From: a candidate division WOR-1 bacterium RIFCSPHIGHO2_01_FULL_53_15
GTDB lineage: Bacteria > Margulisbacteria > WOR-1 > O2-12-FULL-45-9 > XYB2-FULL-48-7
Length of the DNA stretch: 64,000 bases
Reading direction: 5' to 3'
NCBI GenBank assembly: GCA_001772335.1
Contig: METM01000029.1
Span: 8,401 to 72,400 of the forward strand
The translations under genes and the position numbers were made by a program. The notes beneath the pieces are model-generated. The model did not search any database. It was not told where the DNA came from and was given only the letters and a program-made list of their open reading frames with translations. Below are positions 7,115 through 61,901 of the stretch, piece by piece. Positions within the stretch are counted from its first letter, which is position 1; every line of letters starts with the position of its first letter.

Positions 7115-8680
7115 TTACATCGATTCCGGAGCCGTAATTCCCAACAATTCTAACACATTGCGCAGAGTGATTCGAGAGGCGTCGACGAGCGTGAGGCGGG
7201 CGGGATTGCCTAGCACGCGGCACTTTTCGTAGAAGTGATGAAAAACGATCGCGAGTTCCTTGCCGTATTCTGTGATTCGGTGGGGATGTCGCAAAACCGC
7301 CGCCTCTTCCACTGACCGCGGCCACGCAAGGAGTCTCATCATCAGCTCTCTCTCCGCCGGTTCAGTTAGAGAGGATAAATCTTCTTGACCCTTGGTACTT
7401 GACCCTTGCCCCTCGCTCTCGGCCTTACGCAAGATGCTGCAGATCCTCGCATGCCCGTACTGGAGGTAATAGACCGGGTTGTCCATCGACTTCTTCTTGG
7501 CCAGCTCAAGGTCGAAATCCAGGTGTGAGTTGACGTCGGTGGCCGAGAAAAAGAAGCGCGTCGCGTCGGAGCCGATCTCGTCGATCACTTCCGCGAGCGA
7601 GACCATTTCACCCGTTCGCTTGCTCATGCGGATAGGCTCGTTGCCGCGGTAAAGGGTGACGAGCTGGCCGATGATTATTTCCAACCTATCGGCCGGCAGC
7701 CCCATCGCCTCGACTGCCGCTTTCAATCTCTTCACATAACCGTGATGGTCGGTCCCCCAAATATTAATGAGCCGCTCATAGCCGCGCGAGAATTTATCGA
7801 GATGATAAGCGAGATCGGCGGCGAAATATGTTGAATTGCCGTCGGCGCGGACGAGGACGCGGTTCTTGTCATCACCCATCTCCTGCGATTTAAACCAGAT
7901 CGCGCCTGCCTCGATGATCGTCTTGTGATTCTTTTCAAGGCGGGAGACCGCTTCCTTTACCTCGCCCTTGGCGTGGAGTTCGCTCTCATTAAAGAAACGA
8001 TCGAAAAGGACGCCGAGTTTGGCGAGAGTCGCTTTCTGCTCGGAAAGGATGTATTCAATGATATCCTCTTTGCTGTCGCCTTTAACTTCCTTGATATACG
8101 CGCCGCCGTAACCGTTTGCCGGGGTCGGTTTCCTCGCCCTGGCCGCCTGGACCGATTCCCAGAGCTTCTCGACCTGGTTGCCGATATTATTGACGTAGAA
8201 CTCGGTTTCGACTTTAAAACCGGCGGCCTTTAACAAGCGGGCAATCACGTCGCCGATCACCGCCCAACGGCCGTGCCCGACATGCAGCGGCCCAGTCGGA
8301 TTAGCCGAAACGTATTCGAGCAGAATTCTTTGACCCTTGCCACTTGACCCATGCCCCCAGCGCTGATCTTGCCTGATTATTTCCGGAATTGACTTTTGGG
8401 TCAGCTCATCTTTGATGAAGAAATTGATGAAGCCGGGCTTGACGATCTCGATTTTGCTGATAACTTCTTCGGCCCCGCCCATTTTGAGCTTCTCGGCGAT
8501 CTCTGCCGCCAGTTCCATGGGGTTGCGGGAAAGTTTCTTAGCGCCGGCAATGGCCAGATTGGTCGCAAAATCGCCGAATTCCTTGCGGGGAGATGGAGTT
8601 ATTTTGTAATCAAGCTGTATCTGGATACCGGCGGCTGACAGCGCTTTCTCGAGAAGCGATTCAATTGTTGACTGAAGCAT
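7115..8680 (-). CDS. argS: arginine--tRNA ligase
   Basis: 521 aa. SANPTGPLHVGHGR (HIGH region), MSKRTG (KMSK-like), C-terminal anticodon-binding domain ending YYLQYGHARICSILRKA. Confidence 0.95.
   Translation of the reverse strand: MLQSTIESLLEKALSAAGIQIQLDYKITPSPRKEFGDFATNLAIAGAKKLSRNPMELAAEIAEKLKMGGAEEVISKIEIVKPGFINFFIKDELTQKSIPEIIRQDQRWGHGSSGKGQRILLEYVSANPTGPLHVGHGRWAVIGDVIARLLKAAGFKVETEFYVNNIGNQVEKLWESVQAARARKPTPANGYGGAYIKEVKGDSKEDIIEYILSEQKATLAKLGVLFDRFFNESELHAKGEVKEAVSRLEKNHKTIIEAGAIWFKSQEMGDDKNRVLVRADGNSTYFAADLAYHLDKFSRGYERLINIWGTDHHGYVKRLKAAVEAMGLPADRLEIIIGQLVTLYRGNEPIRMSKRTGEMVSLAEVIDEIGSDATRFFFSATDVNSHLDFDLELAKKKSMDNPVYYLQYGHARICSILRKAESEGQGSSTKGQEDLSSLTEPAERELMMRLLAWPRSVEEAAVLRHPHRITEYGKELAIVFHHFYEKCRVLGNPARLTLVDASRITLRNVLELLGITAPESM
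7385..7412. repeat. heptamer cassette, TTGACCC family (copy in argS, 3' part)
   Basis: TTGACCC TTGGTAC TTGACCC TTGCCCC on the plus strand. It encodes GQGSSTKGQ in argS. Confidence 0.8.
8330..8357. repeat. heptamer cassette, TTGACCC family (copy in argS, 5' part)
   Basis: TTGACCC TTGCCAC TTGACCC ATGCCCC. It encodes GHGSSGKGQ just before the HIGH region. Confidence 0.8.
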
Positions 8681-20873: not shown

Positions 20874-20908
20874 AACGTTCTACTTTCTACTGTCTACTTT
20901 CTAATATA
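20874..20908. repeat. intergenic tandem heptamers (TACTTTC type)
   Basis: AACGTTC TACTTTC TACTGTC TACTTTC TAATATA, between tRNA-Ala and secG. Confidence 0.75.
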
Positions 20909-27966: not shown

Positions 27967-28708
27967 GATAATCCTTTATCTCCTTTATAGTCATCTCTTT
28001 ATAATGTAGGATCGAAGCGAGCAAAGCCGCGTCCGCCTTGCCTTTAACGAACGCCTCATAGACATGCTCGTTCTTCCCCGCCCCGCCGGAGGCAATGACC
28101 GGGACTTCGACCGCGTCTGCAATCGCCCGCGTCAACTCCAATTCATAGCCGGCCTTTGTCCCGTCCCGGTCCATGCTCGTCAGGAGTATCTCTCCCGCCC
28201 CGAGCTTAACCGCTTTCTTCGCCCACTCGACCGCATCAAGTCCCGTCGGCGTCCGCCCGCCGTGCGTGTAAACTTCCCAAGTCGTCCCTCGTCCTTCGTC
28301 TTTCGTCCTTCGTTTCGCGTCTATCGCTAAAACCACACACTGGCTCCCAAACTTTTCGGCCCCCTTCTCGATCAGTGATGGGTCGCGCACCGCCGCCGTA
28401 TTGACGGAGATCTTGTCGGCTCCGGCGGAGAGCAATTCTCTCATCGTTTCGACATCATAGATCCCGCCGCCGACGGTGAAAGGGATAAAGATCGTCTCAG
28501 CGACTTTCTTGACGACCTCGAGCATGATATATCTTTTATCGGAAGAAGCGGTAATATCGAGGAACACAAGTTCATCGGCTCCCTCTTTATCATAGACGGC
28601 CGCTAACTCGACCGGGTCGCCCGCGTCCTTGAGATCGACAAATTTCGTCCCCTTGACGACGCGCCCTTCGGTCACGTCAAGGCAGGGAATTATTCTTTTG
28701 GCTAACAT
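27935..28708 (-). CDS. hisF: imidazole glycerol phosphate synthase cyclase subunit HisF-family protein
   Basis: [12 protein letters not shown]...[13 protein letters not shown]...SVNTAAV...ASGGAG. Start at MLAKRI (28708). No other his genes are adjacent. Confidence 0.8.
28281..28322. repeat. tandem heptamers (TTCGTCC type) inside hisF
   Basis: GTCGTCC CTCGTCC TTCGTCT TTCGTCC TTCGTTT CGCGTCT. It encodes [12 protein letters not shown]. Confidence 0.75.
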
Positions 28709-33953: not shown

Positions 33954-34046
33954 TTACTCAACCCCTCCGGAACCTGCGAATAAATCTCGCGCCAGGTTAA
34001 ATCCTCTTATAAATACCGTTTTCATTCCTTAACCACATTAAGAAAA

Positions 34047-34991
34047 CTATTTAATAGTTTTCAAGAGCCTAATAAATCCGGCAGTATTAACAAAATAGTT
34101 GTTCTTATTTTGACGAAGATACCTGTAAATATCCCTCTTCGCTTTTGACATCTTATTGTCGCACGAAGCATTTATAAGCTCGTTAAACATTATCCCATCT
34201 AAAAATGCCACGTAAGAGATATTCTTGTCGGTATATTTCAAGAAGTCAACAAGCTCAACAATTTGACTATATTGTCCTCCGCCGCTACCCTTTTTATGCT
34301 TATGCTCAATAATCCAGGCGTTGGATGCTTTTTGTATATAAAAATCTGGCATTTTGCCTTGTTTGGATTTACTCCATCTAAATTTAACATTATGTTTACT
34401 GCAAATATCCCTAAAATATTTATTATCACCTCGATCAGGCAATAAATAGAATGTGTCTTTATCGAAATCATTATCGTTATTAATTCTCTTGAAACCCGCG
34501 CTTTCAACTAGCGCAGCAATCTTGCTTACGCCGGTTTTGCCAGCCCTTTTATGCGAATAGTTATCGGCTAATACTTGCAATACAATATTGGAATATCCAT
34601 GCGATAGATACATTTGATGTCTGTCATTTATATATTTATTGATTAATTCGCGCAATAAGGGCATTCTATCTTCTTCTCTCTCGCAACTCAAAGATGAATA
34701 CGGCATATCCCAAACCATTAAATACTGGGCGAAAGCTGTATAATTCATATGGCTATTGTTAAAAAGGATGGAATCAATTTCGCCCACAAGGTCGTCTTCT
34801 TGTTTTTTTGACAGTTTTCCCCGCATTGTTTGATATGAGGTAATCAAACCGATAAGACGCTCATTATTCTTAATTGGCTTATTTGTCTTGTGTGCGTCTT
34901 TTGTGATAATAATTTTCTCTTTTTTGTTAGCGTCATCAAATATGTGCTCGGTATTTTTCAGTGAATATTCGAACAATTCGATATTGTCCAT
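34047..34991 (-). CDS. putative type II restriction endonuclease (PD-(D/E)xK)
   Basis: 314 aa, AT-rich. MPDFYIQKASNAWIIEHK gives PD...x12...ExK. AGGAGGG SD lies 7 nt before the ATG. It overlaps the 3' end of the methyltransferase gene by 34 nt. Confidence 0.55.
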   Translation of the reverse strand: MDNIELFEYSLKNTEHIFDDANKKEKIIITKDAHKTNKPIKNNERLIGLITSYQTMRGKLSKKQEDDLVGEIDSILFNNSHMNYTAFAQYLMVWDMPYSSLSCEREEDRMPLLRELINKYINDRHQMYLSHGYSNIVLQVLADNYSHKRAGKTGVSKIAALVESAGFKRINNDNDFDKDTFYLLPDRGDNKYFRDICSKHNVKFRWSKSKQGKMPDFYIQKASNAWIIEHKHKKGSGGGQYSQIVELVDFLKYTDKNISYVAFLDGIMFNELINASCDNKMSKAKRDIYRYLRQNKNNYFVNTAGFIRLLKTIK

Positions 34992-35983
34992 AAAGTATCC
35001 CTCCTGTACACCTTCTCGTAAGCAATTTCAAGCATTGCTCGCGCTGTCTCATAATCTAAGCGCCTTCTTCTCCTGCCATTTTTCATGTTTCCCTTAAACG
35101 GAGACAACAATACATCTTTCGTTCTATCCCTAAAACCAAACAGCACTTTGTTGCACTCCTCGAGGAACAAATCTAATTCATTGCGATTTAATTTATTAAT
35201 ATTGATTAAAGTAATGAGCCGGGAACTTTGTTTAATGTTATTCAAATCATAATCTAATTCATCTTTTCTCATAAATTTAATCATGGAGTTGGGGTCCGTA
35301 GTATCAACTGCCCTTAAAGCGATATTCCCGGCCGAGTCATTAAACGCCATTTCAATATTTTTCGAAGGCTTGATCCTCATTTCCTCAAAGTACCTCAAAG
35401 TATTCAAGTATTCGTCGTTTTTATAAACTTTAATAGCTTTAGGATCCTTAACTCGGCCGTCGAAACAAAGCACACAAACCGGAGTTTCAGTGTCATCAAA
35501 GCAATTATCTTCAATAATCGTAATTGAGTTTAATTTATGTTTCTGCTTAAAATTACTATTAATAAACGTCTCCGGGACAATGGCAACCACGTATTTTTGC
35601 GTCTGAATCATTCTTTCCAGCGCGATCAAATAAATATCATCATATTCGGAATTAGAAAAATATCTTTCGACGCTCTGATAAACCCCCTTCCTCTTGGCGC
35701 TGTAATTAGTCAAGTATGGGGGATTGGTGATTATTATTGCATTATCAATGGTTGGGATATGCAGTAAGCTGTCGTTCTTTGCCCAATCGAGTTTTTCATC
35801 AATATCCAGCCCAATCGTTTCCTGAAAGCCAATACTGCGGGCGGCTTCCAATAAATGACCGTCACCGGCAAAAGGATCATATGCGACCGCCGCTTTCGTG
35901 CTAATAATAAATCTTTTGATATGCTCCTTCAGCCAAATATCTCTCTTGGTATTGAATTGACCGAAAATTATCTTTTTTGCCAT
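34958..35983 (-). CDS. N6-adenine DNA methyltransferase (motif I before motif IV)
   Basis: YDPFAGDGHLL (FxGxG-like SAM motif) and IIITNPPYL (NPPY catalytic motif); 341 aa; AT-rich. Confidence 0.8.
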   Translation of the reverse strand: MAKKIIFGQFNTKRDIWLKEHIKRFIISTKAAVAYDPFAGDGHLLEAARSIGFQETIGLDIDEKLDWAKNDSLLHIPTIDNAIIITNPPYLTNYSAKRKGVYQSVERYFSNSEYDDIYLIALERMIQTQKYVVAIVPETFINSNFKQKHKLNSITIIEDNCFDDTETPVCVLCFDGRVKDPKAIKVYKNDEYLNTLRYFEEMRIKPSKNIEMAFNDSAGNIALRAVDTTDPNSMIKFMRKDELDYDLNNIKQSSRLITLININKLNRNELDLFLEECNKVLFGFRDRTKDVLLSPFKGNMKNGRRRRRLDYETARAMLEIAYEKVYRRDTLWTISNCSNIH

Positions 35984-36008
35984 ACTATTTCATCTCTGTA
36001 TATTTGAT

Positions 36009-36395
36009 TCAATCAGTATTTTCGCCAACATTAACATAGCTTAAAGCCATAATCTTCCTAATATTCGCGCCAATATCTCCATGAGATTCGATTCTGATGT
36101 ACTTTGTTATCCCAGGATACTTCATAAAGCCAGCATCCTTAACGCCTTTATATTTTTGTTTCTTATTTAACGCGAAACCAACCTCAAGAAAATCTTTATT
36201 AAGATAGATAATAACAAATACCCTATCGGTCTTAATGTTGTAATATGTTACATAGATTGGGTAAATGTCAAAATCGATATTATTCTTTGCCAATCTTATT
36301 ATTGATTTATGCAAAGATAAATATAGCTTTTGCGTCCTATCGGAACATTTTCTCTTTAATTTTTCCGTCAGAAGAGTGCTATCAGAATTAATCAT
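36009..36395 (-). CDS. small DUF5655-like protein (function unknown) associated with the R-M module
   Basis: 128 aa, AT-rich. The YVTYYNIKTDRVFVIIYLNKDFLEVGFAL...YIRIESHGDIGANIRKIMALSY pattern resembles DUF5655 (recalled, not searched). The start overlaps the GH57 stop as ATGA. Confidence 0.4.
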   Translation of the reverse strand: MINSDSTLLTEKLKRKCSDRTQKLYLSLHKSIIRLAKNNIDFDIYPIYVTYYNIKTDRVFVIIYLNKDFLEVGFALNKKQKYKGVKDAGFMKYPGITKYIRIESHGDIGANIRKIMALSYVNVGENTD

Positions 36396-37978
36396 TGATA
36401 CACCCTGTAATCAATGTCCGGAAAGATATTGTCTTTGTACTCAATATCCGACAGCCAGGGTGAGTCGATCGAATTGGACTTGATGGCGTCGTAAATTTTG
36501 GTGAACCGCTCGATGTGGTCCTTTGTTCTCTTGTAGGCGTAAGGAACGACCGTCCCCGTCTTGAAGATGAAGGCCCAGTCGGAGGATTGGGCCAACAGTA
36601 ACTCCCGCGCCGCCTGGTTGAGCGCTCGCTGAAGCAAACCGTCCGCCGCCGGGTAGCTCTGCGCCAGCTCGACCATCCGGTCGGCCGCCTTGTGGAGATA
36701 GCGGTAGATCCAGTCGTTTGACCCTTCGAGCCAGACCTCGTTGTAGCCCTGCCAGCCCCAGGACGACATCGAGGGGGTAACGATCTGGTTGCGCGGATGC
36801 CAGTCGAGATATTCTGACGGCGTGACGAGCTTGATCGTCTTCTGGTCGCAGCTGATCTTGCGGATCAGGAAATTTAGCCAGTCAGGGCCTTCGAACCACC
36901 AGTGGCCGTAAAGCTCCGCGTCATAAGGCGAGACGATGATCGGCTTCTTGCCGAGAAAGTCATGGAGGTGCTCAATCTGCTTTTCGCGGTTGAACATAAA
37001 ATTGCCGGCGTGCGCAGCGGCGGTATCCATCGCCCACTGTTTAATATACGGCTCTTTGAAAGCCAGATCGACGCGGCCGGTGATTCGGTGGTATTTGATG
37101 CCGGTGTTGATCCGCGTCCCATCGCTGTGGATATAGGGGCGGATGTAATCGTAATCAAGATCGAAACCGATATCGCGGTAGAATTCCCGGTAATTATAGT
37201 CGCCGGGGTAGCCCTCCTCCGCGCTCCAGACCGCTTTTGAGGATTCCATGTCGCGGCCGAAAGCGGCCACCCCCGACTTGCAATAGACGGGGGCAAAGAC
37301 GCCGTATTTGGGGCGCGGCGTGCCGTGCAGGATGCCGTGCGTGTCAGTGAGAAAATAGCGGATCCCCGCTTCTTTCAGGAATTCGTCGTGGCCCGGATGA
37401 TAGCCGCACTCCGGCAGCCAGATCCCCCTGGCGCGCCGTCCGAAAAGCTTTTCGTACTGCGCCGCCGCGACCATGATCTGTGCCCGCACCGCTTTTGGAT
37501 TAATATCCATGAGCGGCAGGAAGCCGTGAGTCGCCCCGCAGGTGATGATCTCGAGTTTCCCCAGGTCCTGGAATTGCTTGAAGGCGTTGACGAGGTTGCG
37601 GCCCCACTTGCCGGTAAAGAGCGAGCGCGCCTCGATGAAGGTCTGGTTGTACATCTTGGCCAGCTCGTGGAACTGCGCCTGCCAGCGTGTCCGCTCCATT
37701 TCCTTATAGGTAAGTTCGATCAGCTTATCGAGATGCTTGAGATAGCGTTCCTGCAAAAGCGGGTCGATGAACATCGAGGCGAGCGTCGGCGTGATCGACA
37801 TGGTAAGGCGGAAGTCAACCCCGTCGCTGACCAGGCCTTCGAAAACATTCAAGAGAGGGATATAGGTTTCGGTGATCGCCTCGTAGAACCAGTCCTCTTC
37901 GAGAAAATCCTCGTATTCGGGGTGCCGCACGTACGGCAGATGCGCGTGCAGGACCAGCGCGAGATAACCTTTTTCCAT
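36392..37978 (-). CDS. GH57 family 1,4-alpha-glucan branching enzyme-like protein
   Basis: MEKGYLALVLHAHLPYVRHPEYEDFLEEDWFYEAITETYIPLL is typical of GH57 branching enzymes. About 528 aa after start correction. Confidence 0.8.
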   Translation of the reverse strand: MEKGYLALVLHAHLPYVRHPEYEDFLEEDWFYEAITETYIPLLNVFEGLVSDGVDFRLTMSITPTLASMFIDPLLQERYLKHLDKLIELTYKEMERTRWQAQFHELAKMYNQTFIEARSLFTGKWGRNLVNAFKQFQDLGKLEIITCGATHGFLPLMDINPKAVRAQIMVAAAQYEKLFGRRARGIWLPECGYHPGHDEFLKEAGIRYFLTDTHGILHGTPRPKYGVFAPVYCKSGVAAFGRDMESSKAVWSAEEGYPGDYNYREFYRDIGFDLDYDYIRPYIHSDGTRINTGIKYHRITGRVDLAFKEPYIKQWAMDTAAAHAGNFMFNREKQIEHLHDFLGKKPIIVSPYDAELYGHWWFEGPDWLNFLIRKISCDQKTIKLVTPSEYLDWHPRNQIVTPSMSSWGWQGYNEVWLEGSNDWIYRYLHKAADRMVELAQSYPAADGLLQRALNQAARELLLAQSSDWAFIFKTGTVVPYAYKRTKDHIERFTKIYDAIKSNSIDSPWLSDIEYKDNIFPDIDYRVYQ

Positions 37979-45600: not shown

Positions 45601-47004
45601 CTATTTCGGCGGCGCTATCTTCGGCAATTCCCCGTAAACCTTCTTGTAGATCTCGAGATACCGATCCTTGCCGCCGATCAGCATCATCGTCAGCGGCATG
45701 ACATCTTTGGCGACTTTCGTCATCTCGGCCGCGAGCTCCTGGATCTCCCACTGGGCGTGCGGGTCTTCGCGTAGTCTTGAGATATGGTAGAGCTCGCGCG
45801 CGTTCGTCGTCATCAGCACGCGCTTCCTGTGCGCTCCGGTCAGGACATATTCGGCCGCCCGCTGGTCGATCTTAGCTATTTCGCGGTAAACAGATTCCGT
45901 CTCTTTGCATATTCCCTTAAATCTTCCCTCATACCCCTTACCCCTTACCTTTTCCGGTATTACTATCCCCAACTCCGGTTCGTATAATTGTGAAGTTATC
46001 GTCGCGACCCGGTGGCGCTTCAACTGCCCGAAACAGCCGGACGACATGACGAGGTCGTAGGTCAGGTGGCTATGCTCGAATTCGCGCAGGGTCGAATCAT
46101 AGAACTCCATGTGCCGGCAGGCCGTCATGACCGCCCTCTCCCGTTCGTGTTTCTTCATATCCTTGGCGACGCGCAGGGAATTCTGGAACGAGATCTGCGA
46201 TGAAGTGTGGAGGAGCGAAGCGACGAGCTTGATATCCGCGTTCCTGGTGTAGTCGAGGAGCGTCGTTCTCCGGCTGACGCGCCGTTTGCGCTCCCATTTC
46301 CCCCGGAAGTAGGCCCGCAGTTCGGGATAGGTTTTCTGGTCAAAGTCATTGGCGGCGGTAAAAAGGATGATCGACGGCGCGATATTGGCCGCAAGCTCAT
46401 ACATCGTCTTGCCGATCTCTCTCACCTCGGCCAGCCCCGACGAAGCGAACCGCCGCACGAGCAGTTCCAGGTTGCGGGCGTTGATCGTCAGTCCGACCTG
46501 GCCTAATGTGCAAAGTGGAGTAATATATCTCGCATCTTCCGGCTCGATCCCCTTTCCGATCATCTCCGCGTAGAACTTGTTCTGCTTTTCAATTATCTCT
46601 CTGAATCTTACCTCATACCCCTTACCCCTTACCTCATCCGGTAAGATGTAACTCCCCTCAAGCTTCTGATACCTCTGCGACTTCTCCGTATAAGAACAGA
46701 GCCGGAACTTTTCTATCTCCTCTAACGCCAAACGCGAAACGTCGATCAGGTCGAAATTAAAAACGGCGTGTTCGGCCACCGAATGGTGGCCCATTTTGAA
46801 GATGATATTGGAATTCGACTTGCGGGCTTTCTCGACCTCGGCGCGGGCCGCCTGGCGCAGTTCGTCGATCGGTCGGGGATCGCGGGAGATGCGAGCATAG
46901 GAGGCAGAGAGGGTCTCGGGGGTCACGTCCTGGCGGTTTTGTCCGGCGGTCAATTCCGCGATGACATCCGCGTCGACGTTATAACCCGCGAGAAGAACCT
47001 TCAT
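45601..47004 (-). CDS. thyX: FAD-dependent thymidylate synthase, tandem two-domain form
   Basis: 467 aa, about twice the usual ThyX size. Domain 1 carries KFRLCSYTEKSQRY (near-complete RHRxxSxxxxSxRY). Domain 2 carries RHRVATITSQLY (a shortened, degenerate version). Confidence 0.85.
   Translation of the reverse strand: MKVLLAGYNVDADVIAELTAGQNRQDVTPETLSASYARISRDPRPIDELRQAARAEVEKARKSNSNIIFKMGHHSVAEHAVFNFDLIDVSRLALEEIEKFRLCSYTEKSQRYQKLEGSYILPDEVRGKGYEVRFREIIEKQNKFYAEMIGKGIEPEDARYITPLCTLGQVGLTINARNLELLVRRFASSGLAEVREIGKTMYELAANIAPSIILFTAANDFDQKTYPELRAYFRGKWERKRRVSRRTTLLDYTRNADIKLVASLLHTSSQISFQNSLRVAKDMKKHERERAVMTACRHMEFYDSTLREFEHSHLTYDLVMSSGCFGQLKRHRVATITSQLYEPELGIVIPEKVRGKGYEGRFKGICKETESVYREIAKIDQRAAEYVLTGAHRKRVLMTTNARELYHISRLREDPHAQWEIQELAAEMTKVAKDVMPLTMMLIGGKDRYLEIYKKVYGELPKIAPPK
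45927..45954. repeat. heptamer cassette, CCCCTTA family (thyX domain 2)
   Basis: CCTCATA CCCCTTA CCCCTTA CCTTTTC. It encodes KVRGKGYEG. Confidence 0.8.
46611..46638. repeat. heptamer cassette, CCCCTTA family (thyX domain 1)
   Basis: CCTCATA CCCCTTA CCCCTTA CCTCATC. It encodes EVRGKGYEV. 26 of 28 nt are identical to the copy at 45927. Confidence 0.8.
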
Positions 47005-49311: not shown

Positions 49312-50750
49312 CCCTTCACAACCACCATCGGCCTTAACCGGACTACCTTTTTGGCCAGGCCAGAATTGTGAACGACGTCGACGACTTCGCGCACATCTTT
49401 GTAGGCCTCCGGCGCTTCTTCGACCAGGCCTTTGCGGCTGGCCGACCTGACCACGATCCCCTGTTTATCAAGATCAGCCATCAGCTCTTTGTAGTTGTAT
49501 TTCCGCAGGGCGGCCGAGCGGCTCAAGCGCCTCCCCGCCCCGTGGCAAACAGAACCCCATGTCTCATTCATCGCCAGTTCGGTCCCTACCATAATATAGG
49601 AATATCTCCCCATATCGCCAGGCACGAGGACCGGATCGCCCGGAAAAGCCCGCGTCGCCCCTTTGCGGTGTACGCATAGCAATTTTTCTATCTCGCTACC
49701 CCCTACCCCCTTAACCTTGTGTTTCTCCATCTTCGCTATGTTATGACAAACATCATAGATCAAGCTGATGCCAAGCTGCTGCGGCGTAGCGCCCATGGCT
49801 TTGGCAAATGATTCCCTCGTCCAGTGCATGATGAGCTGGCGATTGCACCAGGCGAAGTTGGCGGCGGCGCACATGGCCGAGAAATACTGCTTGCCTTCGG
49901 GCGAATTGACCGGCGCGCAGACGAGCTGGCGGTCTGGCAAGTAGATATTGTATTTGGCGACGGCCTTGTGCAGTATATTGATGTAATCGGAGCAGACCTG
50001 GTGGCCAAAGCCGCGCGAACCGGTGTGGACCATGATCGTCACCTGGTCTTTTTGCAGGCCGAAGGCATTAGCGGCCGCTTCATCATATATCTCTTCGACG
50101 AACTGGACTTCGAGAAAGTGATTGCCGGAGCCCAGTGTCCCGACCTGGTCTTTGCCCCGCTCCCTGGCGTGATGCGAAACCGCCGAGGGGTCGGCCCCCG
50201 CGAGCGCCCCGTTCGCTTCAGTGTGCTCTATGTCGTCATTGACCCCATAGCCGTTCTTGACCGCCCACTTCGCCCCTTCGGTCAGCACCTTGTCCATTTC
50301 TTTTTCGGAGAGCGAAATAACGCCGGTCGAGCCAACGCCGGAGGGGACCTCGCGTGCCAGCTCGTTGGCTATGTCATTAATTTTCTTCCGGACTTCATCT
50401 TTATGAAGGTTGGTGCGCAAAACGCGAACGCCGCAATTAATGTCGTAGCCGACACCGCCGGGCGAAATGACCCCACCCTGCTCCGGATCAAACGCCGCCA
50501 CACCGCCAATGGCAAAGCCGTAGCCGAGATGGATATCGGGCATGGCCAGGGAATAACCGACGATCCCCGGCAAGCAAGCGACATTGGCAACCTGGACATG
50601 GGCATTCTCTTTGTAGAGGAGCGGCAGCATCGCTTCGTCGGCGTAGAGGAGACCGTCGGTCCTCATTTCCGGCTTAAAACTGCGGGGGATCAGCCAGCGA
50701 TAATCGTCAACTTTTTGAAAAACCGTCTCCCAGCCGGGCATCAATGGCAC
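49308..50750 (-). CDS. rtcB: RNA-splicing ligase RtcB
   Basis: 480 aa. [43 protein letters not shown] and HRKGAT motifs. Confidence 0.9.
49692..49712. repeat. heptamer cassette related to the CCCCTTA family (in rtcB)
   Basis: CTCGCTA CCCCCTA CCCCCTT. It encodes KGVGGSE. Confidence 0.6.
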
Positions 50751-50761
50751 CTCCGAGGATA

Positions 50762-51490
50762 TTATATACCGAAATCAATGCCAAAACATTCGCTGAACCC
50801 CTTGGCCAGCGCTGTGCTGATCTCGCAAAAGCCAACTTCTCGGCCAAGAACTTCTTCAACGCTCACGGCGTTATGATCAGAATAGGGCTCTTTAAGGACA
50901 GGAAATATTTCTTCCGGCGGCCGGCGGACAAAAATCGATCCCTGCTGGAGCAGAGCCCGCCTGCCCCTCTTCTGCGCGCTGCCGACGATCTTCTTCCCGC
51001 TAACAACGATCTCATATTCTGCAGGGAAAGAGAAGCACAACGAGGTTCTTGATTTTTGATTTGGGCTTTTAGATTTGTTTTGAAGTTTGATGTTTGAGGT
51101 TTGAAGTTCTGCCGCAACCCCGATTCCCGCCAGTCCGGCGACAACTGCCTCCGATATCTTCTTATATGAAGGGACCAGCCCTTTGGGCAGTAACGGATTC
51201 CCAATCTCGGTCACGATCGAGTAAGTCACTTCCGCTTCGTTGTGAAAAACGATGCCGCCGCCGGTCGGCCTTTTCACGATATCCCAGCCTAAGGCCCTAG
51301 CCATTTTCCCATCTATCAATCTATCTTCATTCTGCGAATAACCGAGCGAGATGCAGTTGGGTTGCCAGGAATAAATGCGCAAAGTGGAAGGGATGGCGCC
51401 ACGTTCAAGGTCGTTGAAAAGCCCGAGATCGATTCCCATATTGGCCTGGCCGCGGAGGCAAGGGATTGTGATCAGCCGCCAGTTTTCCAC
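50762..51490 (-). CDS. lipoate-protein ligase / octanoyltransferase family protein (BPL_LplA_LipB domain)
   Basis: [28 protein letters not shown] and [11 protein letters not shown] motifs. GTG start at 51490 (VENWRLI) is suggested; ATG 51439 is possible. The longer ORF overlaps gcvPB. Confidence 0.7.
51046..51108. repeat. 63-nt heptamer array, TGAAGTT family (in lipoate ligase-like gene)
   Basis: TTCTTGA TTTTTGA TTTGGGC TTTTAGA TTTGTTT TGAAGTT TGATGTT TGAGGTT TGAAGTT. It encodes [21 protein letters not shown]. Confidence 0.8.
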
Positions 51491-52884
51491 GATAGGACCG
51501 GTTCGCGCGCAGCTTTGGTTTCGTCCAATCTTCTGACAGGAGTATCGTGCGGAGCCGACTTCACCAGCTCCGGATCGGTCTCGCACTCTTTAGCGATCTT
51601 GATCATCGCCTCACAAAACGCGTCGAGCGTTTCCTGTGATTCACTCTCCGTCGGCTCGATCATCAGCGATTCCTCAACGATGAGGGGGAAGTAGATCGTC
51701 GGCGGGTGAAAACCATAGTCGATCAGGCGTTTGGCGATATCGAGCGCCTTGATACCGTATTTCTCCTTCTGCCATTTGGCCGAGATGACGAACTCATGCT
51801 GGCATTGCCTGTCATAAGGCAAATAATAATGTTCTTTGAGCTTGTTCATCATGTAATTGGCGTTCTCGACCGCTTTTTCCGATACTTTCTTCAGCCCCTC
51901 CGCCCCCAGCGAAAGAATATAGGCATAGGCCTTGATGATGACTCCAATGTTGCCGTGGAAGGAGTGGACTCTGCCTATGGACTTATCGTAATGCGTAACG
52001 CGTAACGCGTAATGCGAATTTTCTTTGACCACCCGGGGAATCGGCAAAAACGGCTCAAGTTTCTTGTTGACGCCGACCGGACCCGAGCCCGGGCCGCCGC
52101 CGCCGTGCGGTGTTGAAAAAGTTTTGTGGAGGTTAAAATGAGCGACATCAAAGCCGAGATCGGCCGGCCGACAGATGCCAAGGTTGGCATTGGCATTGGC
52201 GCCGTCATAATAGAGGAGGCCGCCAGATTTGTGGACGATCTCCGCGACCTCGAGAATATGCTCATCGAACAGCCCAAGCGTGTTCGGATTGGTCAGCATT
52301 AAACCGGCCGTGTCTTCTCCCACCGCTTTTTTCAGTTCATCAACATTGATATTGCCCCGGCCGTTCGACTTGATGACGACCGGCGTAAAGCCAACCATCG
52401 CAACCGACGCCGGATTTGTTCCATGCGATGAATCGGGGATCACTACCTTGACCCTTGCTGCTTGACCCATGTCCCTGTGATAAGCTTTCATCATCATCAG
52501 CGCCGTCAGCTCGCCGTGAGCTCCGGCCGCCGGCTGGAGCGTGAACGCGTCGAAACCGAAGATCGCGCACATGTATTTTTCAAAGTTATAAAGCAGTTCC
52601 AGTATCCCCTGGCTCTGCGCCGCAGCCTGCAAGGGGTGCGCGCCGGCAAAGCCGGGCAGGCGCGCGATATCCTCGTTGACCTTCGGGTTATATTTCATCG
52701 TGCAGGAGCCGAGCGGATAAAAATGTGTGTCGACCGAAAAATTCTTCTGCGAAAGCCGCGTAAAATGGCGGATAACATCAAGCTCGGTGCGCTCCGGCAA
52801 GCTCAACTCTTTTCTTAAGAGGTCCGGCGGTATCAATTCTTCAAGTTTTTCGACCGGTACGTCAAACTCTGGCAGAGAGACCAT
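51472..52884 (-). CDS. gcvPB: glycine dehydrogenase (decarboxylating) subunit 2
   Basis: 470 aa. [14 protein letters not shown] and [16 protein letters not shown] (PLP-Lys region). Confidence 0.9.
51987..52014. repeat. tandem heptamers (CGTAACG type) inside gcvPB
   Basis: CGTAATG CGTAACG CGTAACG CGTAATG. It encodes HYALRVTHY. Confidence 0.75.
52448..52475. repeat. heptamer cassette, TTGACCC family (copy in gcvPB, different reading frame)
   Basis: TTGACCC TTGCTGC TTGACCC ATGTCCC. It is read as DMGQAARVK, shifted by one nt relative to the argS/trpE copies. Confidence 0.8.
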
Positions 52885-60791: not shown

Positions 60792-61901
60792 TCAGGCAGT
60801 CGTGTAATATTTGCCTGGCAGCTGGCGGACCGCTTTCTTGATCTCCAGCATCATTAAGAGCGAAGATGCCTGGTGGACCGGCAGGCCGGCCTCAGCGGCA
60901 ACACTGTCCAAATGTTTCGATTCGTCGGTCAATGCATCATAGATCTTCGCTTCTTCCGGCGTCAGGTTCGCCGGTCTGGTTTTTGGCGTTTGTGACTTGT
61001 TAGTTGTTTTGAAGTTTGATGTTTGAAGTTGGATGTTTAATTCCTCGAGAACGTCTTCAACCGTTTCGACAAGCTTCGCTCCTTGCTTGATCAGCCAGTG
61101 CGGCCCTTTTGATTGCTCGAGGCCCACGTTGCCCGGCACGGCAAAAACTTCCCGCCCCTGCTCCAGCGCTGCCTTGGCTGTGATCATCGCCCCGCTGTCG
61201 TAATGGCCTTCAACGACGATGACACCGAGAGAAAGCCCTGATATTATCCTGTTCCGCCGGGGGAAATTCCCTTTTTCTCCCCGCGCACCCATGGGAAATT
61301 CAGAGACCAGCGCGCCGCGGCTCTCGATCTCGCGGGACATCTCTTTATTATGCGGCGGATAAATGACATCCACCCCGCAGCCAAAGACCGCGATCGTTCG
61401 TCCATTCGCTTCGAGTGCGCCTTGATGGGCCGCCGTATCAATACCCGAGGCCAGACCCGAGACGATCGTCATGCCCAAAGCCGCCAGTTCTCCCGCGAAC
61501 TTCTTGGCCGTTTCCAGGCCGTAACGGGAAGCTCGCCTTGTGCCAACAATGGCTAACGACCTGCCGTCCGAAGGCAGAAGATCGCCTTTAACATAAAGCA
61601 CGGGCGGCGGATCATAAATATTTTTTAGGTTTTTGGGATAATTTTTGTCGGCCAGCGTGAGAATTGAGACCCTTTGCTTTTCGACCTCAGCCAGTTCGGC
61701 GGCAGGATCGAGCTGACCACGGCTTTGGATAAAGGCGGCAGCCGCCGTTCTGTTTATGCCTTCGACCGCGAAAATATCTTTTTCATCCGCTCGCCAAACC
61801 GCTTCAATTGATTCGAACCTGCCCCAGAGTTTATTAATTGTGACGGCGCCAAGGCCGGGGATCTTGTTTATCGCCAGCCAGTATTTCAGATCTTCATTCA
61901 T
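60792..61901 (-). CDS. dprA: DNA-processing protein DprA (Smf)
   Basis: NKIPGLGAVTINKL (SAM/HhH-like), the Rossmann core IVSGLASGIDTAAH...GVIVVEG, and a C-terminal winged helix. Start at MNEDLKY (61901). Confidence 0.9.
   Translation of the reverse strand: MNEDLKYWLAINKIPGLGAVTINKLWGRFESIEAVWRADEKDIFAVEGINRTAAAAFIQSRGQLDPAAELAEVEKQRVSILTLADKNYPKNLKNIYDPPPVLYVKGDLLPSDGRSLAIVGTRRASRYGLETAKKFAGELAALGMTIVSGLASGIDTAAHQGALEANGRTIAVFGCGVDVIYPPHNKEMSREIESRGALVSEFPMGARGEKGNFPRRNRIISGLSLGVIVVEGHYDSGAMITAKAALEQGREVFAVPGNVGLEQSKGPHWLIKQGAKLVETVEDVLEELNIQLQTSNFKTTNKSQTPKTRPANLTPEEAKIYDALTDESKHLDSVAAEAGLPVHQASSLLMMLEIKKAVRQLPGKYYTTA
60975..61037. repeat. heptamer array, TGAAGTT family (in the dprA linker)
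   Basis: ...GTTGTTT TGAAGTT TGATGTT TGAAGTT GGATGTT. A 23-nt block (ttgttttgaagtttgatgtttga) is identical to 51076-51098. It encodes LQTSNFKTTNKSQTPKTRP. Confidence 0.8.

What the first reader, a model, noticed from the sequence alone, without database searches (positions are those of the whole stretch)
51046..51108. About 60-nt A/T-rich heptamer array (TGAAGTT TGATGTT ...) is shared by a lipoate ligase-like gene and dprA
Regions 51046-51108 and 60975-61037 share a 23-nt identical core (ttgttttgaagtttgatgtttga) and recognisably similar flanks. Both are built from 7-nt units. They encode [21 protein letters not shown] and LQTSNFKTTNKSQTPKTRP. These are low-complexity segments placed between the strand preceding the conserved CF..(E) region and the [11 protein letters not shown] motif of the ligase, and in the linker before the C-terminal winged helix of DprA. 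Their composition is very different from the GC-rich host genes. That points to secondary insertion of the same element into two unrelated genes.
Basis: seen in the sequence. Interest (0 to 1): 0.75.

Follow-up and report, generated by a model that had tools for sequence, protein, structure and literature searches.

The report
Heptamer-built repeat inside housekeeping genes
Two unrelated genes of a Saganbacteria (WOR-1) genome each carry, in frame, one copy of a ~60-base repeat made of 7-base units; the repeat family sits in at least 13 kinds of housekeeping genes in this lineage, is translated into floppy surface loops, and its DNA is better conserved than the genes around it.

Summary
51075-51097 and 61004-61026 share an exact 23-mer, with none expected by chance. 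Each lies in a ~65-nt G-poor, heptamer-built segment in a minus-strand gene: a LplA/LipM-like ligase and DprA.

**Supported:** the two segments are copies of one dispersed element. It has four C[ACT]TCAAA units, an AACAAATC junction and decayed CAAATCN units. In Saganbacteria/Margulisbacteria it also occurs in frame in BioA-like, MnmA, QueA, ThyX, PriA, XerC/D-like, PGM/PMM, ThiL-like and SdhA/NadB-like genes, and in FlgH. Between genes it forms long hairpins.

**Not supported:** a recent insertion. Orthologues only 60-70% identical carry it at the same sites and in the same register, and I found no presence/absence variants.

**Unexpected:**
- The shared 23-mer is read in different frames in the two genes.
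- Family copies use all three frames.
- The element is usually the most nucleotide-conserved stretch of its host gene.
- AlphaFold2 models the encoded loops as disordered.

Best reading: old, tolerated repeat DNA of the heptanucleotide-repeat kind, under an unexplained nucleotide-level constraint. How it spreads is unknown. I rate it a new variant of a known kind, of moderate to high interest.

The parts
50762..51490 (-). LplA/LipM-like lipoate/octanoyl ligase-transferase gene that hosts copy 1. Start taken as GTG 51490; the public annotation OGB89176.1 starts at ATG 51439.
   Evidence: Pfam PF21948 3.3e-29 and PF03099 7.3e-13. Invariant Cys152 and the [11 protein letters not shown] motif in alignment A2. 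Cluster look-up.
51046..51112 (-). Element copy 1. It is G-poor on the coding strand (A36 C17 G4 T10) and encodes about [23 protein letters not shown].
   Evidence: nhmmer hit 51045-51114, E 1.1e-13. Composition and codons. AlphaFold2 pLDDT below 50 for residues 134-156.
51079..51108 (-). A array of copy 1: four heptamer units, CTTCAAA CCTCAAA CATCAAA CTTCAAA on the coding strand.
   Evidence: TRF period 7, 4.3 copies, score 46. In register with five orthologues.
51072..51079 (-). Junction AACAAATC (Asn-Lys-Ser). Its ACAAATC core is invariant in all six ligase orthologues and present in BioA, ThyX, QueA and other copies.
51075..51097 (.). Exact 23-mer shared with 61004-61026. Read here as S-N-I-K-L-Q-N (the top base is the first base of a codon).
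60792..61901 (-). dprA gene that hosts copy 2 (369 aa, identical to OGB89185.1).
   Evidence: Pfam PF02481 9.4e-79 and PF17782 2.4e-12. P0121 is 100% identical.
60972..61044 (-). Element copy 2, in the linker between the DprA Rossmann-like domain and the C-terminal winged helix. It encodes ELNIQLQTSNFKTTNKSQTPKTR.
   Evidence: nhmmer hit 60972-61044, E 7e-14. AlphaFold2 pLDDT below 50 for residues 291-306.
61008..61038 (-). A array of copy 2 (period 7, 4.4 copies).
   Evidence: TRF.
61004..61026 (.). Exact 23-mer shared with 51075-51097. Read here as Q-T-S-N-F-K-T (the top base is the third base of a codon).

Best explanation
The two segments are single 'C/A-rich arms' of a dispersed repeat family typical of Saganbacteria (candidate division WOR-1) and Margulisbacteria. 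The family is built from 7-nt units: four C[ACT]TCAAA units, a fixed junction AACAAATC, then decayed CAAATCN units, about 60 nt with almost no G. Between genes the family occurs as an inverted pair (C/A arm, loop, T/G arm) that can fold into a long hairpin. Inside genes only one arm is present and is translated as a Gln/Thr/Ser/Asn/Lys-rich disordered surface loop or linker.

The C/A-rich strand can sit in an ORF because it has almost no G, so it cannot make TGA or TAG, and because three 7-nt units equal seven codons. The complementary strand carries TGA in every frame. That explains why both window copies have the C/A strand as sense (shown).

Both copies are old. They were present at these two sites before the sampled species diverged and have been inherited vertically (shown by shared register and site-specific signatures).

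Within an array the units are kept alike, and loop lengths change in steps of about 7 residues. This fits slippage or unequal exchange in 21-nt steps (inferred).

The nucleotide sequence is held close to one family consensus whatever the reading frame or host gene. Something therefore acts on the DNA or RNA rather than on the peptide. The two candidates are purifying selection on a nucleic-acid function, or repeated gene conversion from the intergenic hairpin copies (inferred, not resolved).

How new copies are made is unknown. I favour ectopic, recombination-type or template-switch copying from existing copies, since no transposase was found.
For: Family and homology:
- Six copies from three genes and four genomes align without gaps.
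- DprA in L134 and BioA in L014 share 44/45 nt.
- A scan of metagenomes with the junction 19-mer found 89 stretches, about 41 of them non-redundant true members, with a roughly 60-nt G-free consensus.
- Host genes were named by Pfam (PriA, MnmA, QueA, a class-III aminotransferase, an AIR-synthase-related protein, a XerC/D-type integrase, PGM/PMM, an FAD flavoprotein, YdjM) or read from sequence context and my own knowledge, not by a family search (ThyX; FlgH).

Hairpin form:
- Predicted folding energies are -48 to -86 kcal/mol for L214, L136, L140, L162, L152 and L184.
- 13 of 27 non-genic copies have an inverted arm within 250 nt downstream. None of 14 in-gene copies has one.

Age:
- Six ligase orthologues, 60-65% identical in protein, share four A units plus the invariant core ACAAATC. 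Three DprA orthologues share a site-specific 5' signature.
- Gene order is conserved.
- Orthologous copies are slightly more alike (about 79-84%) than copies in different genes (about 74%).

Constraint at the nucleotide level:
- The element is the most conserved 36-nt window in 3 of 3 ligase pairs (0.89-0.97 identity, against 0.61-0.62 for the whole gene and 0.40-0.45 at third positions of identical residues).
- It ranks first in 2 of 3 BioA pairs and in the MnmA pair.
- The same sequence is read in all three phases (9, 3 and 2 of 14 in-gene copies) and in two phases within this window.

Array dynamics:
- The A units are homogenised within each lineage: CTTCAAA, ATCCGAA x4, or ATWCKAA.
- Loop residues across homologues repeat at a lag of 7 (0.254 and 0.155, against 0.03-0.09 at other lags). 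Ligase loop lengths cluster at 16, 22-24, 30 and 36 residues.

Disorder: pLDDT is below 50 only in the element-coded segments of otherwise confident models.

Stop codons: no T/G-strand core is open in more than one frame, and 30 of 41 are closed in all three.
Against: - No copying machinery was found. The genes next to intergenic copies are ordinary housekeeping genes, and there were no matches in viral contigs.
- Copies within one genome are not more alike than orthologous copies in different genomes. That argues against frequent genome-wide gene conversion and leaves the conservation unexplained.
- Some orthologues have a different unit at the same site (L131, L132), so the CTTCAAA unit is not indispensable.
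- Part of the high identity could come from the two-letter composition, although 89-97% is far above what composition alone gives.
- Taxonomic assignment of the metagenome copies is indirect.
- I held only about 20-kb pieces of related genomes, so copy number per genome is not known.
Confidence: 0.6

Rival explanations
1. Independent microsatellite growth. Each gene happened to grow its own heptanucleotide array in a permissive loop by replication slippage, and the 23-nt identity is convergence on a commonly favoured unit.
For: Heptanucleotide repeats are reported to be the most abundant long simple repeats in most bacterial genomes, with slippage proposed as the cause (Mrazek 2007, as cited in PMC4692102 and PMC4679880). 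(TTTGADG)3 arrays occur in more than 119 loci across many phyla. The window holds 10 period-7 arrays against 1.0 expected. The GcvPB loop carries arrays with different units in the window and in L128.
Against: The two window copies and the copies in other genes share non-repetitive features in a fixed order and register: exactly four A units, the AACAAATC junction and the B-type tail. Different genes in different genomes share 44/45 nt. The unit number is fixed at four in six orthologues, not variable as free slippage predicts.
Confidence: 0.1
2. A selected peptide linker. The Q/T/S/N/K-rich peptide itself is the useful part, for example as a flexible, soluble linker, and similar DNA follows from similar peptides plus codon preference.
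For: Both segments sit in a loop or linker and are predicted to be disordered. Polar low-complexity linkers are common in proteins (my own knowledge).
Against: The identical 23-mer encodes different residues in the two genes. Family copies are read in all three frames. Synonymous positions inside the element are nearly invariant while those of the host genes are saturated. The element's A/C-rich codons go against the host's roughly 55% G+C. Many copies are intergenic.
Confidence: 0.05
3. A recent mobile-element insertion, the first reader's reading: a small transposable element that recently jumped into both genes and is polymorphic in the population.
For: Composition is very unlike the host's. 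The same element lies in unrelated genes. The hairpin-forming intergenic copies resemble REP- or MITE-type elements.
Against: Orthologues 60-70% identical carry it at the same sites in the same register. There are no length variants in the 90% clusters. Nineteen contigs read by the look-up (sources shown include ENA, JGI, NCBI and Logan) encode the identical DprA. No transposase lies nearby. Only one arm is present in genes.
Confidence: 0.05
4. A functional nucleic-acid element embedded in coding sequence. The G-poor C/A-rich tract is kept because it acts in the mRNA or in single-stranded DNA. Possible roles are a binding platform with a 7-nt register (for example for cold-shock-domain proteins), an intragenic Rho-loading site, or a partner that pairs with the T/G-rich arms of other transcripts.
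For: It is the most nucleotide-conserved window in several host genes. Conservation does not depend on frame. The roughly 60-nt G-free consensus is shared by genic and intergenic copies. In L126 and L133 an inverted copy lies about 315 nt downstream, in the next gene. Cold-shock proteins are reported to bind heptamer repeats, one protein per unit (reviewed in PMC4679880).
Against: There is no direct evidence. Rfam has no matching family. Some orthologues replaced the unit (ATCCGAA in L131). Only two copies occur in 64 kb, which is sparse for a global signal.
Confidence: 0.2

Closest known systems
Heptanucleotide long simple-sequence repeats of bacteria (Mrazek et al. 2007, as cited in PMC4692102 and PMC4679880)
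   Same: Both are head-to-tail 7-nt units, strongly over-represented relative to chance, typically about 4 units long, and found in many phyla.
   Different: Those repeats were described mainly between genes and as under-represented in coding regions. Here the array is part of a composite element with a fixed unit number, a conserved junction and a hairpin form, and it lies in frame inside housekeeping genes.
Geobacter metallireducens family of 49 elements with four tandem heptanucleotide repeats (consensus GGACCGG; PMC2700814)
   Same: Both are multicopy elements made of four heptamer units, found both within genes and between genes in one genome.
   Different: The unit sequence differs (G/C-rich there, A/C-rich here) and so does the phylum. 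The parts of that paper read here mention no hairpin pairing, composite junction, reading-frame usage or cross-species conservation.
Rickettsia palindromic elements (RPE; Ogata et al. 2000, recalled from my own knowledge, not read here)
   Same: Both are short repeat DNA inserted in frame into many unrelated housekeeping genes. The encoded peptides lie on the protein surface and are tolerated.
   Different: RPEs are 100-150 bp, and the whole palindrome lies inside the ORF. Here only one roughly 60-nt arm is in the ORF, the element is built from heptamers, and the lineage is unrelated.
Cyanobacterial STRR heptamer repeats (Mazel et al. 1990, as cited in PMC4692102)
   Same: Both are tandem heptamers dispersed through the genome. 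Saganbacteria are a sibling lineage of Cyanobacteria (PMC6349859).
   Different: The STRR units I recall (CCCCAGT, TTGGTCA, CAACAGT; own knowledge, not read here) are not this unit. STRRs are described as mainly intergenic. No homology was tested.
REP/REPIN and MITE-type hairpin repeats (PMC3116915)
   Same: The intergenic copies are short, dispersed, imperfect palindromes, often lying between convergent genes.
   Different: No RAYT or other transposase was found. The arms are internally repetitive heptamer arrays. Single arms occur in ORFs.

Membership tests
Heptanucleotide long SSR | Three or more head-to-tail copies of a 7-nt unit | tested here: met
   TRF finds period 7 with 4.3 and 4.4 copies.
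Heptanucleotide long SSR | More frequent than chance in the genome | tested here: met
   The window has 10 period-7 arrays (score >=30) against 1.0 expected, and 6 (score >=40) against 0, in 100 codon-chunk shuffles.
Heptanucleotide long SSR | Copy number varies between strains or relatives (slippage) | tested here: inconclusive
   The A array has exactly 4 units in six orthologues, and there are no variants in the 90% clusters. However, ligase loop lengths across 58 sequences (57 homologues plus the window protein) fall in classes about 7 residues apart.
Geobacter-type four-heptamer dispersed element | Four tandem heptamers, multicopy, both within and between genes | tested here: met
Geobacter-type four-heptamer dispersed element | Consensus unit GGACCGG | tested here: not met
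   The unit here is C[ACT]TCAAA.
Rickettsia palindromic element (RPE)-like selfish DNA in ORFs | In-frame presence in many unrelated protein-coding genes | tested here: met
   At least 13 kinds of host gene. Most were named by Pfam. ThyX and FlgH were named from sequence context only.
Rickettsia palindromic element (RPE)-like selfish DNA in ORFs | The complete palindromic element lies inside the ORF | tested here: not met
   None of 14 in-gene copies has an inverted arm within 250 nt. Exception: the FlgH N-terminus in L010.
Rickettsia palindromic element (RPE)-like selfish DNA in ORFs | The encoded segment is surface-exposed and does not disrupt the fold | tested here: met
   Only the element-coded residues have pLDDT below 50 in otherwise confident models (mean 88.1 and 87.3). 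This is a prediction, not an experiment.
REP/REPIN | Short intergenic imperfect palindrome that forms a hairpin | tested here: met
   Fold energies of -48 to -86 kcal/mol. 13 of 27 non-genic copies are paired.
REP/REPIN | Associated RAYT (IS200/IS605-like) transposase | tested here: inconclusive
   None among the 10 flanking ORFs scanned. Whole genomes were not searched.
MITE | Terminal inverted repeats plus target-site duplication | not tested
   Element ends are not sharply defined, and no empty sites were available for comparison.
Cyanobacterial STRR | One of the described STRR units, in heterocystous cyanobacteria | tested here: not met
   The unit differs, and the host is candidate division WOR-1.
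Rfam RNA families | Match at the gathering threshold | tested here: not met
   Only tRNA-Ala was found in the window plus 8 loci holding family copies (six of them hairpin copies).

The most novel reading that the evidence does not exclude
The element is not just tolerated junk. It is a cis-acting nucleic-acid signal written into the loops of housekeeping genes and kept by selection on the DNA or RNA in any reading frame. One candidate role is a 7-nt-register binding platform for a single-strand-binding protein, such as a cold-shock-domain protein. Another is an intragenic Rho-loading or transcript-pairing site that links the expression of many core genes. A second novel possibility is an undescribed copying mechanism that makes in-frame, stop-free insertions.
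Probability: 0.18. Interest if true: 0.85.

Novelty: new variant of a known kind. Interest (0 to 1): 0.6.

Why it matters
**Selfish or repeat DNA in ORFs.** It adds a well-defined example, in a poorly known sibling lineage of Cyanobacteria, of repeat DNA living inside essential protein-coding genes. The classic case is the Rickettsia palindromic elements.

**Origin of heptanucleotide repeats.** It links that phenomenon to bacterial heptanucleotide repeats, whose origin is still unexplained.

**Why this repeat fits in an ORF.** The design is simple: the sense strand is nearly G-free, so it cannot form TGA or TAG, and three 7-nt units make exactly seven codons.

**A testable puzzle.** A disordered loop is the most nucleotide-conserved part of its gene, in three different reading frames.

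**Practical points:**
- These segments can mislead alignments, gene calling and homology-based trimming in candidate-phylum genomes.
- They mark permissive insertion sites in LipM/LplA-like ligases, DprA, BioA, MnmA, QueA, ThyX and PriA.

Tried and rejected
- **Exact look-up with the long TTG start of DprA** found nothing. The ATG start worked.
- **Viral contigs:** the junction 19-mer has no match, so there is no sign of a phage vector.
- **Rfam:** no family matches.
- **Transposase or RAYT next to intergenic copies:** none among 10 flanking ORFs. They are TsaE, aspartokinase, ribosomal proteins L14 and S17, AhpC, DnaJ-HTH proteins and two ORFs with no Pfam match.
- **Inverted partner near the two window copies:** none within about 400 nt.
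- **More copies of the composite element in the window:** none (nhmmer).
- **Presence/absence or length polymorphism:** none in the 90% clusters.
- **Papers not held:** Elhai 2008 on small dispersed repeats in cyanobacteria could not be opened, and a term search did not surface Mrazek 2007. Statements about Mrazek 2007 come from citing papers, and nothing in this report rests on Elhai 2008.
- **Rejected explanations:** an assembly artefact (the same sequence appears in ENA, JGI, NCBI and Logan assemblies), and selection on the peptide (frame analysis).

Full report
**1. The observation.**
- The 23-mer TTGTTTTGAAGTTTGATGTTTGA occurs exactly twice in the window, at 51075-51097 and 61004-61026. 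No further match appears with up to 3 mismatches, and none in 100 shuffles.
- Tandem Repeats Finder reports period-7 arrays at 51079-51108 and 61008-61038.
- Without gaps the two segments are 43/67 identical. They are nearly identical for about 33 nt around the core.
- Both lie in minus-strand genes:
  - A LplA/LipM-like ligase, 50762-51490 (Pfam LplA-B_cat 3.3e-29).
  - DprA, 60792-61901 (DNA_processg_A 9.4e-79 plus DprA_WH).
- On the coding strand each segment has only 4-5 G in about 70 nt and about 30% G+C. The surrounding DNA is about 55% G+C.

**2. Organism and host genes.**
- The DprA protein is identical to that of candidate division WOR-1 (Saganbacteria) bacterium RIFCSPHIGHO2_01_FULL_53_15.
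- It is encoded on 19 contigs read by the look-up; the sources shown include ENA, JGI, NCBI and Logan.
- The ligase is annotated publicly from ATG 51439 (OGB89176.1, 225 aa). GTG 51490 gives a fuller N-terminus.

**3. The segments are extra, disordered, but old.**
- The ligase matches 196 Pfam profile positions with 217 residues. It also has about a dozen more residues than Thermoplasma LplA at this loop.
- AlphaFold2 models built from the orthologue alignments are confident overall (mean pLDDT 88.1 and 87.3). pLDDT falls below 50 in ligase residues 134-156 and DprA residues 291-306, which overlap the element-coded parts, and otherwise only in the last three DprA residues.
- All 57 ligase and 62 DprA homologues examined have a low-complexity segment at the same place. 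All are labelled Saganbacteria or Margulisbacteria where labelled, apart from one ligase labelled Sulfotelmatobacter, and all are 55-70% identical to the window proteins.
- The closest ones share the QTSN[FIL]K motif.
- Over all homologues, loop residues repeat at a lag of 7: 0.254 for the ligase and 0.155 for DprA, against 0.03-0.09 at other lags. This is the signature of 7-nt units, because 21 nt equals 7 codons.
- Ligase loop lengths cluster at 16, 22-24, 30 and 36 residues.

**4. A defined composite element, not just an array.**
- DNA from orthologous loci shows six ligase orthologues in perfect register. Each has four 'A' units, then the invariant heptamer ACAAATC (the core of the AACAAATC junction), then 'B' units of the CAAATCN type.
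- The A unit differs by lineage and is homogenised within each array. It is CTTCAAA in four genomes, ATCCGAA x4 in L131 and ATWCKAA in L132.
- The same architecture is seen in DprA (window, L129, L134) and in BioA (L014). All six copies first compared align without gaps.
- DprA of L134 and BioA of L014 share 44/45 nt.

**5. A dispersed family.**
- A profile search finds only the two copies in the window.
- A metagenome scan with the junction 19-mer TCAAACYTCAAAACAAATC returned 89 stretches, of which about 41 are non-redundant true members. The same pattern has no match in viral contigs.
- In-frame host genes identified by Pfam:
  - PriA
  - MnmA
  - QueA
  - a class-III aminotransferase (BioA-like)
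  - an AIR-synthase-related protein (ThiL-like)
  - a XerC/D-type integrase
  - a phosphogluco/mannomutase
  - an SdhA/NadB-like flavoprotein
  - YdjM, with the T/G strand as sense
- Further hosts are ThyX and FlgH, both named from sequence context and my own knowledge rather than by a family search.
- The family consensus is a roughly 60-nt G-free core.

**6. Intergenic copies are hairpins.**
- Thirteen of 27 non-genic copies have an inverted T/G-rich arm within 250 nt downstream. None has one upstream.
- None of 14 in-gene copies has an inverted arm.
- Predicted stems reach -48 to -86 kcal/mol.
- Several copies lie between convergent genes.
- One hairpin arm (L184) appears to contain about 35 nt identical to window 51076-51110. 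This comes from reading the output, not from a computed alignment.
- Flanking genes are ordinary housekeeping genes, and no transposase was seen. Rfam has no matching family.

**7. Conservation is at the nucleotide level.**
- The shared 23-mer is read as SNIKLQN in the ligase and QTSNFKT in DprA.
- In-gene family copies use all three phases: 9, 3 and 2 of 14.
- In all three ligase pairs the element is the most nucleotide-conserved 36-nt window, at 0.89-0.97 identity. The whole gene is at 0.61-0.62, and third positions of identical residues are at 0.40-0.45.
- The same holds for two of three BioA pairs and for the MnmA pair. In DprA it is 0.92, against 0.68 for the gene.
- Orthologous copies are only slightly more alike (about 79-84%) than copies in different genes (about 74%). 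Copies within one genome are not especially alike.
- The pattern is therefore vertical inheritance at each site plus a force that holds every copy near one consensus. I could not decide between purifying selection on a DNA or RNA function and repeated conversion from the hairpin copies.

**8. Why this orientation.** The T/G strand carries TGA in all frames over three units. No T/G-strand core has more than one open frame, and 30 of 41 have none. Only the C/A strand can be sense, unless the sequence is altered as in YdjM and FlgH.

**9. Wider context.**
- Period-7 arrays are strongly enriched in the window: 10 against 1.0 expected, and 6 against 0 at score >=40. They lie inside ArgS, HisF, ThyX, RtcB and GcvPB.
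- Related loci show about three such arrays per 20 kb, mostly inside genes.
- (TTTGADG)3 arrays occur in more than 119 loci from many phyla, often in frame in conserved genes. The composite element was found in every Saganbacteria locus of that set (L010, L014, L080). The only other full-length match was a weaker one in a Bacteroidales locus (L113), probably chance.
- The literature already records the following:
  - Heptanucleotide repeats are the most abundant long simple repeats in bacteria, with a preference for four units (PMC4692102, PMC4679880).
  - Geobacter metallireducens has 49 four-heptamer elements within and between genes (PMC2700814).
- I found no paper on this family or on such repeats in Saganbacteria.

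**10. Verdict.**
- The finding is real. The 'same element in two genes' reading is right, and the 'recent secondary insertion' reading is not.
- It is best filed as a new variant of known kinds: heptanucleotide dispersed repeats, and repeat DNA tolerated in ORFs.
- Its notable and unexplained feature is frame-independent nucleotide conservation that exceeds that of the host genes.

Noticed in passing
window 7384-7413 (ArgS), 28282-28321 (HisF), 45932-45949 and 46607-46633 (ThyX), 49696-49711 (RtcB), 51987-52016 (GcvPB), 20878-20903 (intergenic, next to tRNA-Ala): These are other period-7 arrays with unrelated units (CTTGACC, TCGTCCT, CTTACCC, CTACCCC, CGTAACG, TTCTACT), mostly inside conserved genes. 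Period 7 is the only period with about 4 copies, and it is about ten times more frequent than in shuffles.
   Followed up: partly
window 51987-52016 compared with L128 8295-8325 and L126 (GcvPB loop after FLPxPR): The same GcvPB loop has the same length in three orthologues. It is written with a different heptamer unit in the window and in L128 (CGCATTA-type, ATTCGTC) and with a roughly 21-nt repeat in L126. The arrays seem to overwrite the loop without changing its length. L124 (Verrucomicrobiae GcvP) has a TTTGATG array in what appears, from sequence context, to be the equivalent loop.
   Followed up: partly
window 45932-45949 and 46607-46633: The two halves of the tandem ThyX carry the same 18-nt array (TACCCCTTACCCCTTACC) at equivalent positions, encoding VRGKGYE in both. 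The L151 orthologue is not repetitive there. Instead L151 has the composite element in the inter-domain linker, where the window gene has none.
   Followed up: partly
window 49696-49711: The GGGGTAG x2.3 array in RtcB corresponds to a 5-residue insertion (GVGGS) relative to the L126 and L133 orthologues.
   Followed up: yes
L126 10414-10443 and 10759-10787; L133 10397-10413 and 10739-10755: The B array of the ligase element has a nearly perfect inverted copy (29 nt, 97% complementary) about 315 nt downstream, inside the N-terminus of the next gene (Tricorn-like). This arrangement is conserved in two genomes and is a possible long-range RNA pairing.
   Followed up: partly
L010 5730-5794 (+) and 5814-5871 (-): Both arms of the element lie inside the 5' end of what looks like flgH, the L-ring protein (named from sequence context only). 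One arm is read as KLQTSNFKHPNNSK. The other is read on its T/G strand as the hydrophobic signal-peptide-like stretch FEVGCLMFGF.
   Followed up: partly
L013, L017, L048, L121 (Desulfobacterales MAG GMC2_bin_2): TTTGATG arrays sit at the very ends of four contigs of one MAG. This suggests long arrays that break the assembly.
   Followed up: no
L098 3323-3454 and L090 (uncultured Prevotella): A very long (about 19-unit, 132-nt) TTTGAGG array lies in frame just upstream of a conserved block that looks like MnmE (named by eye, not by a family search). Arrays in other phyla can be much longer than the four units seen in Saganbacteria.
   Followed up: no
window 34000-36400: This is an AT-rich island (G+C 0.36, against about 0.55) with two ORFs. 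One has a weak Eco57I-type restriction-modification methylase match (2.5e-07). It is probably horizontally acquired.
   Followed up: partly
window 51439-51490: The ligase is annotated publicly from ATG 51439 (225 aa). An in-frame GTG at 51490 overlaps the end of gcvPB by 19 nt. That start adds an N-terminal stretch that orthologues possess and that is modelled with high confidence.
   Followed up: partly
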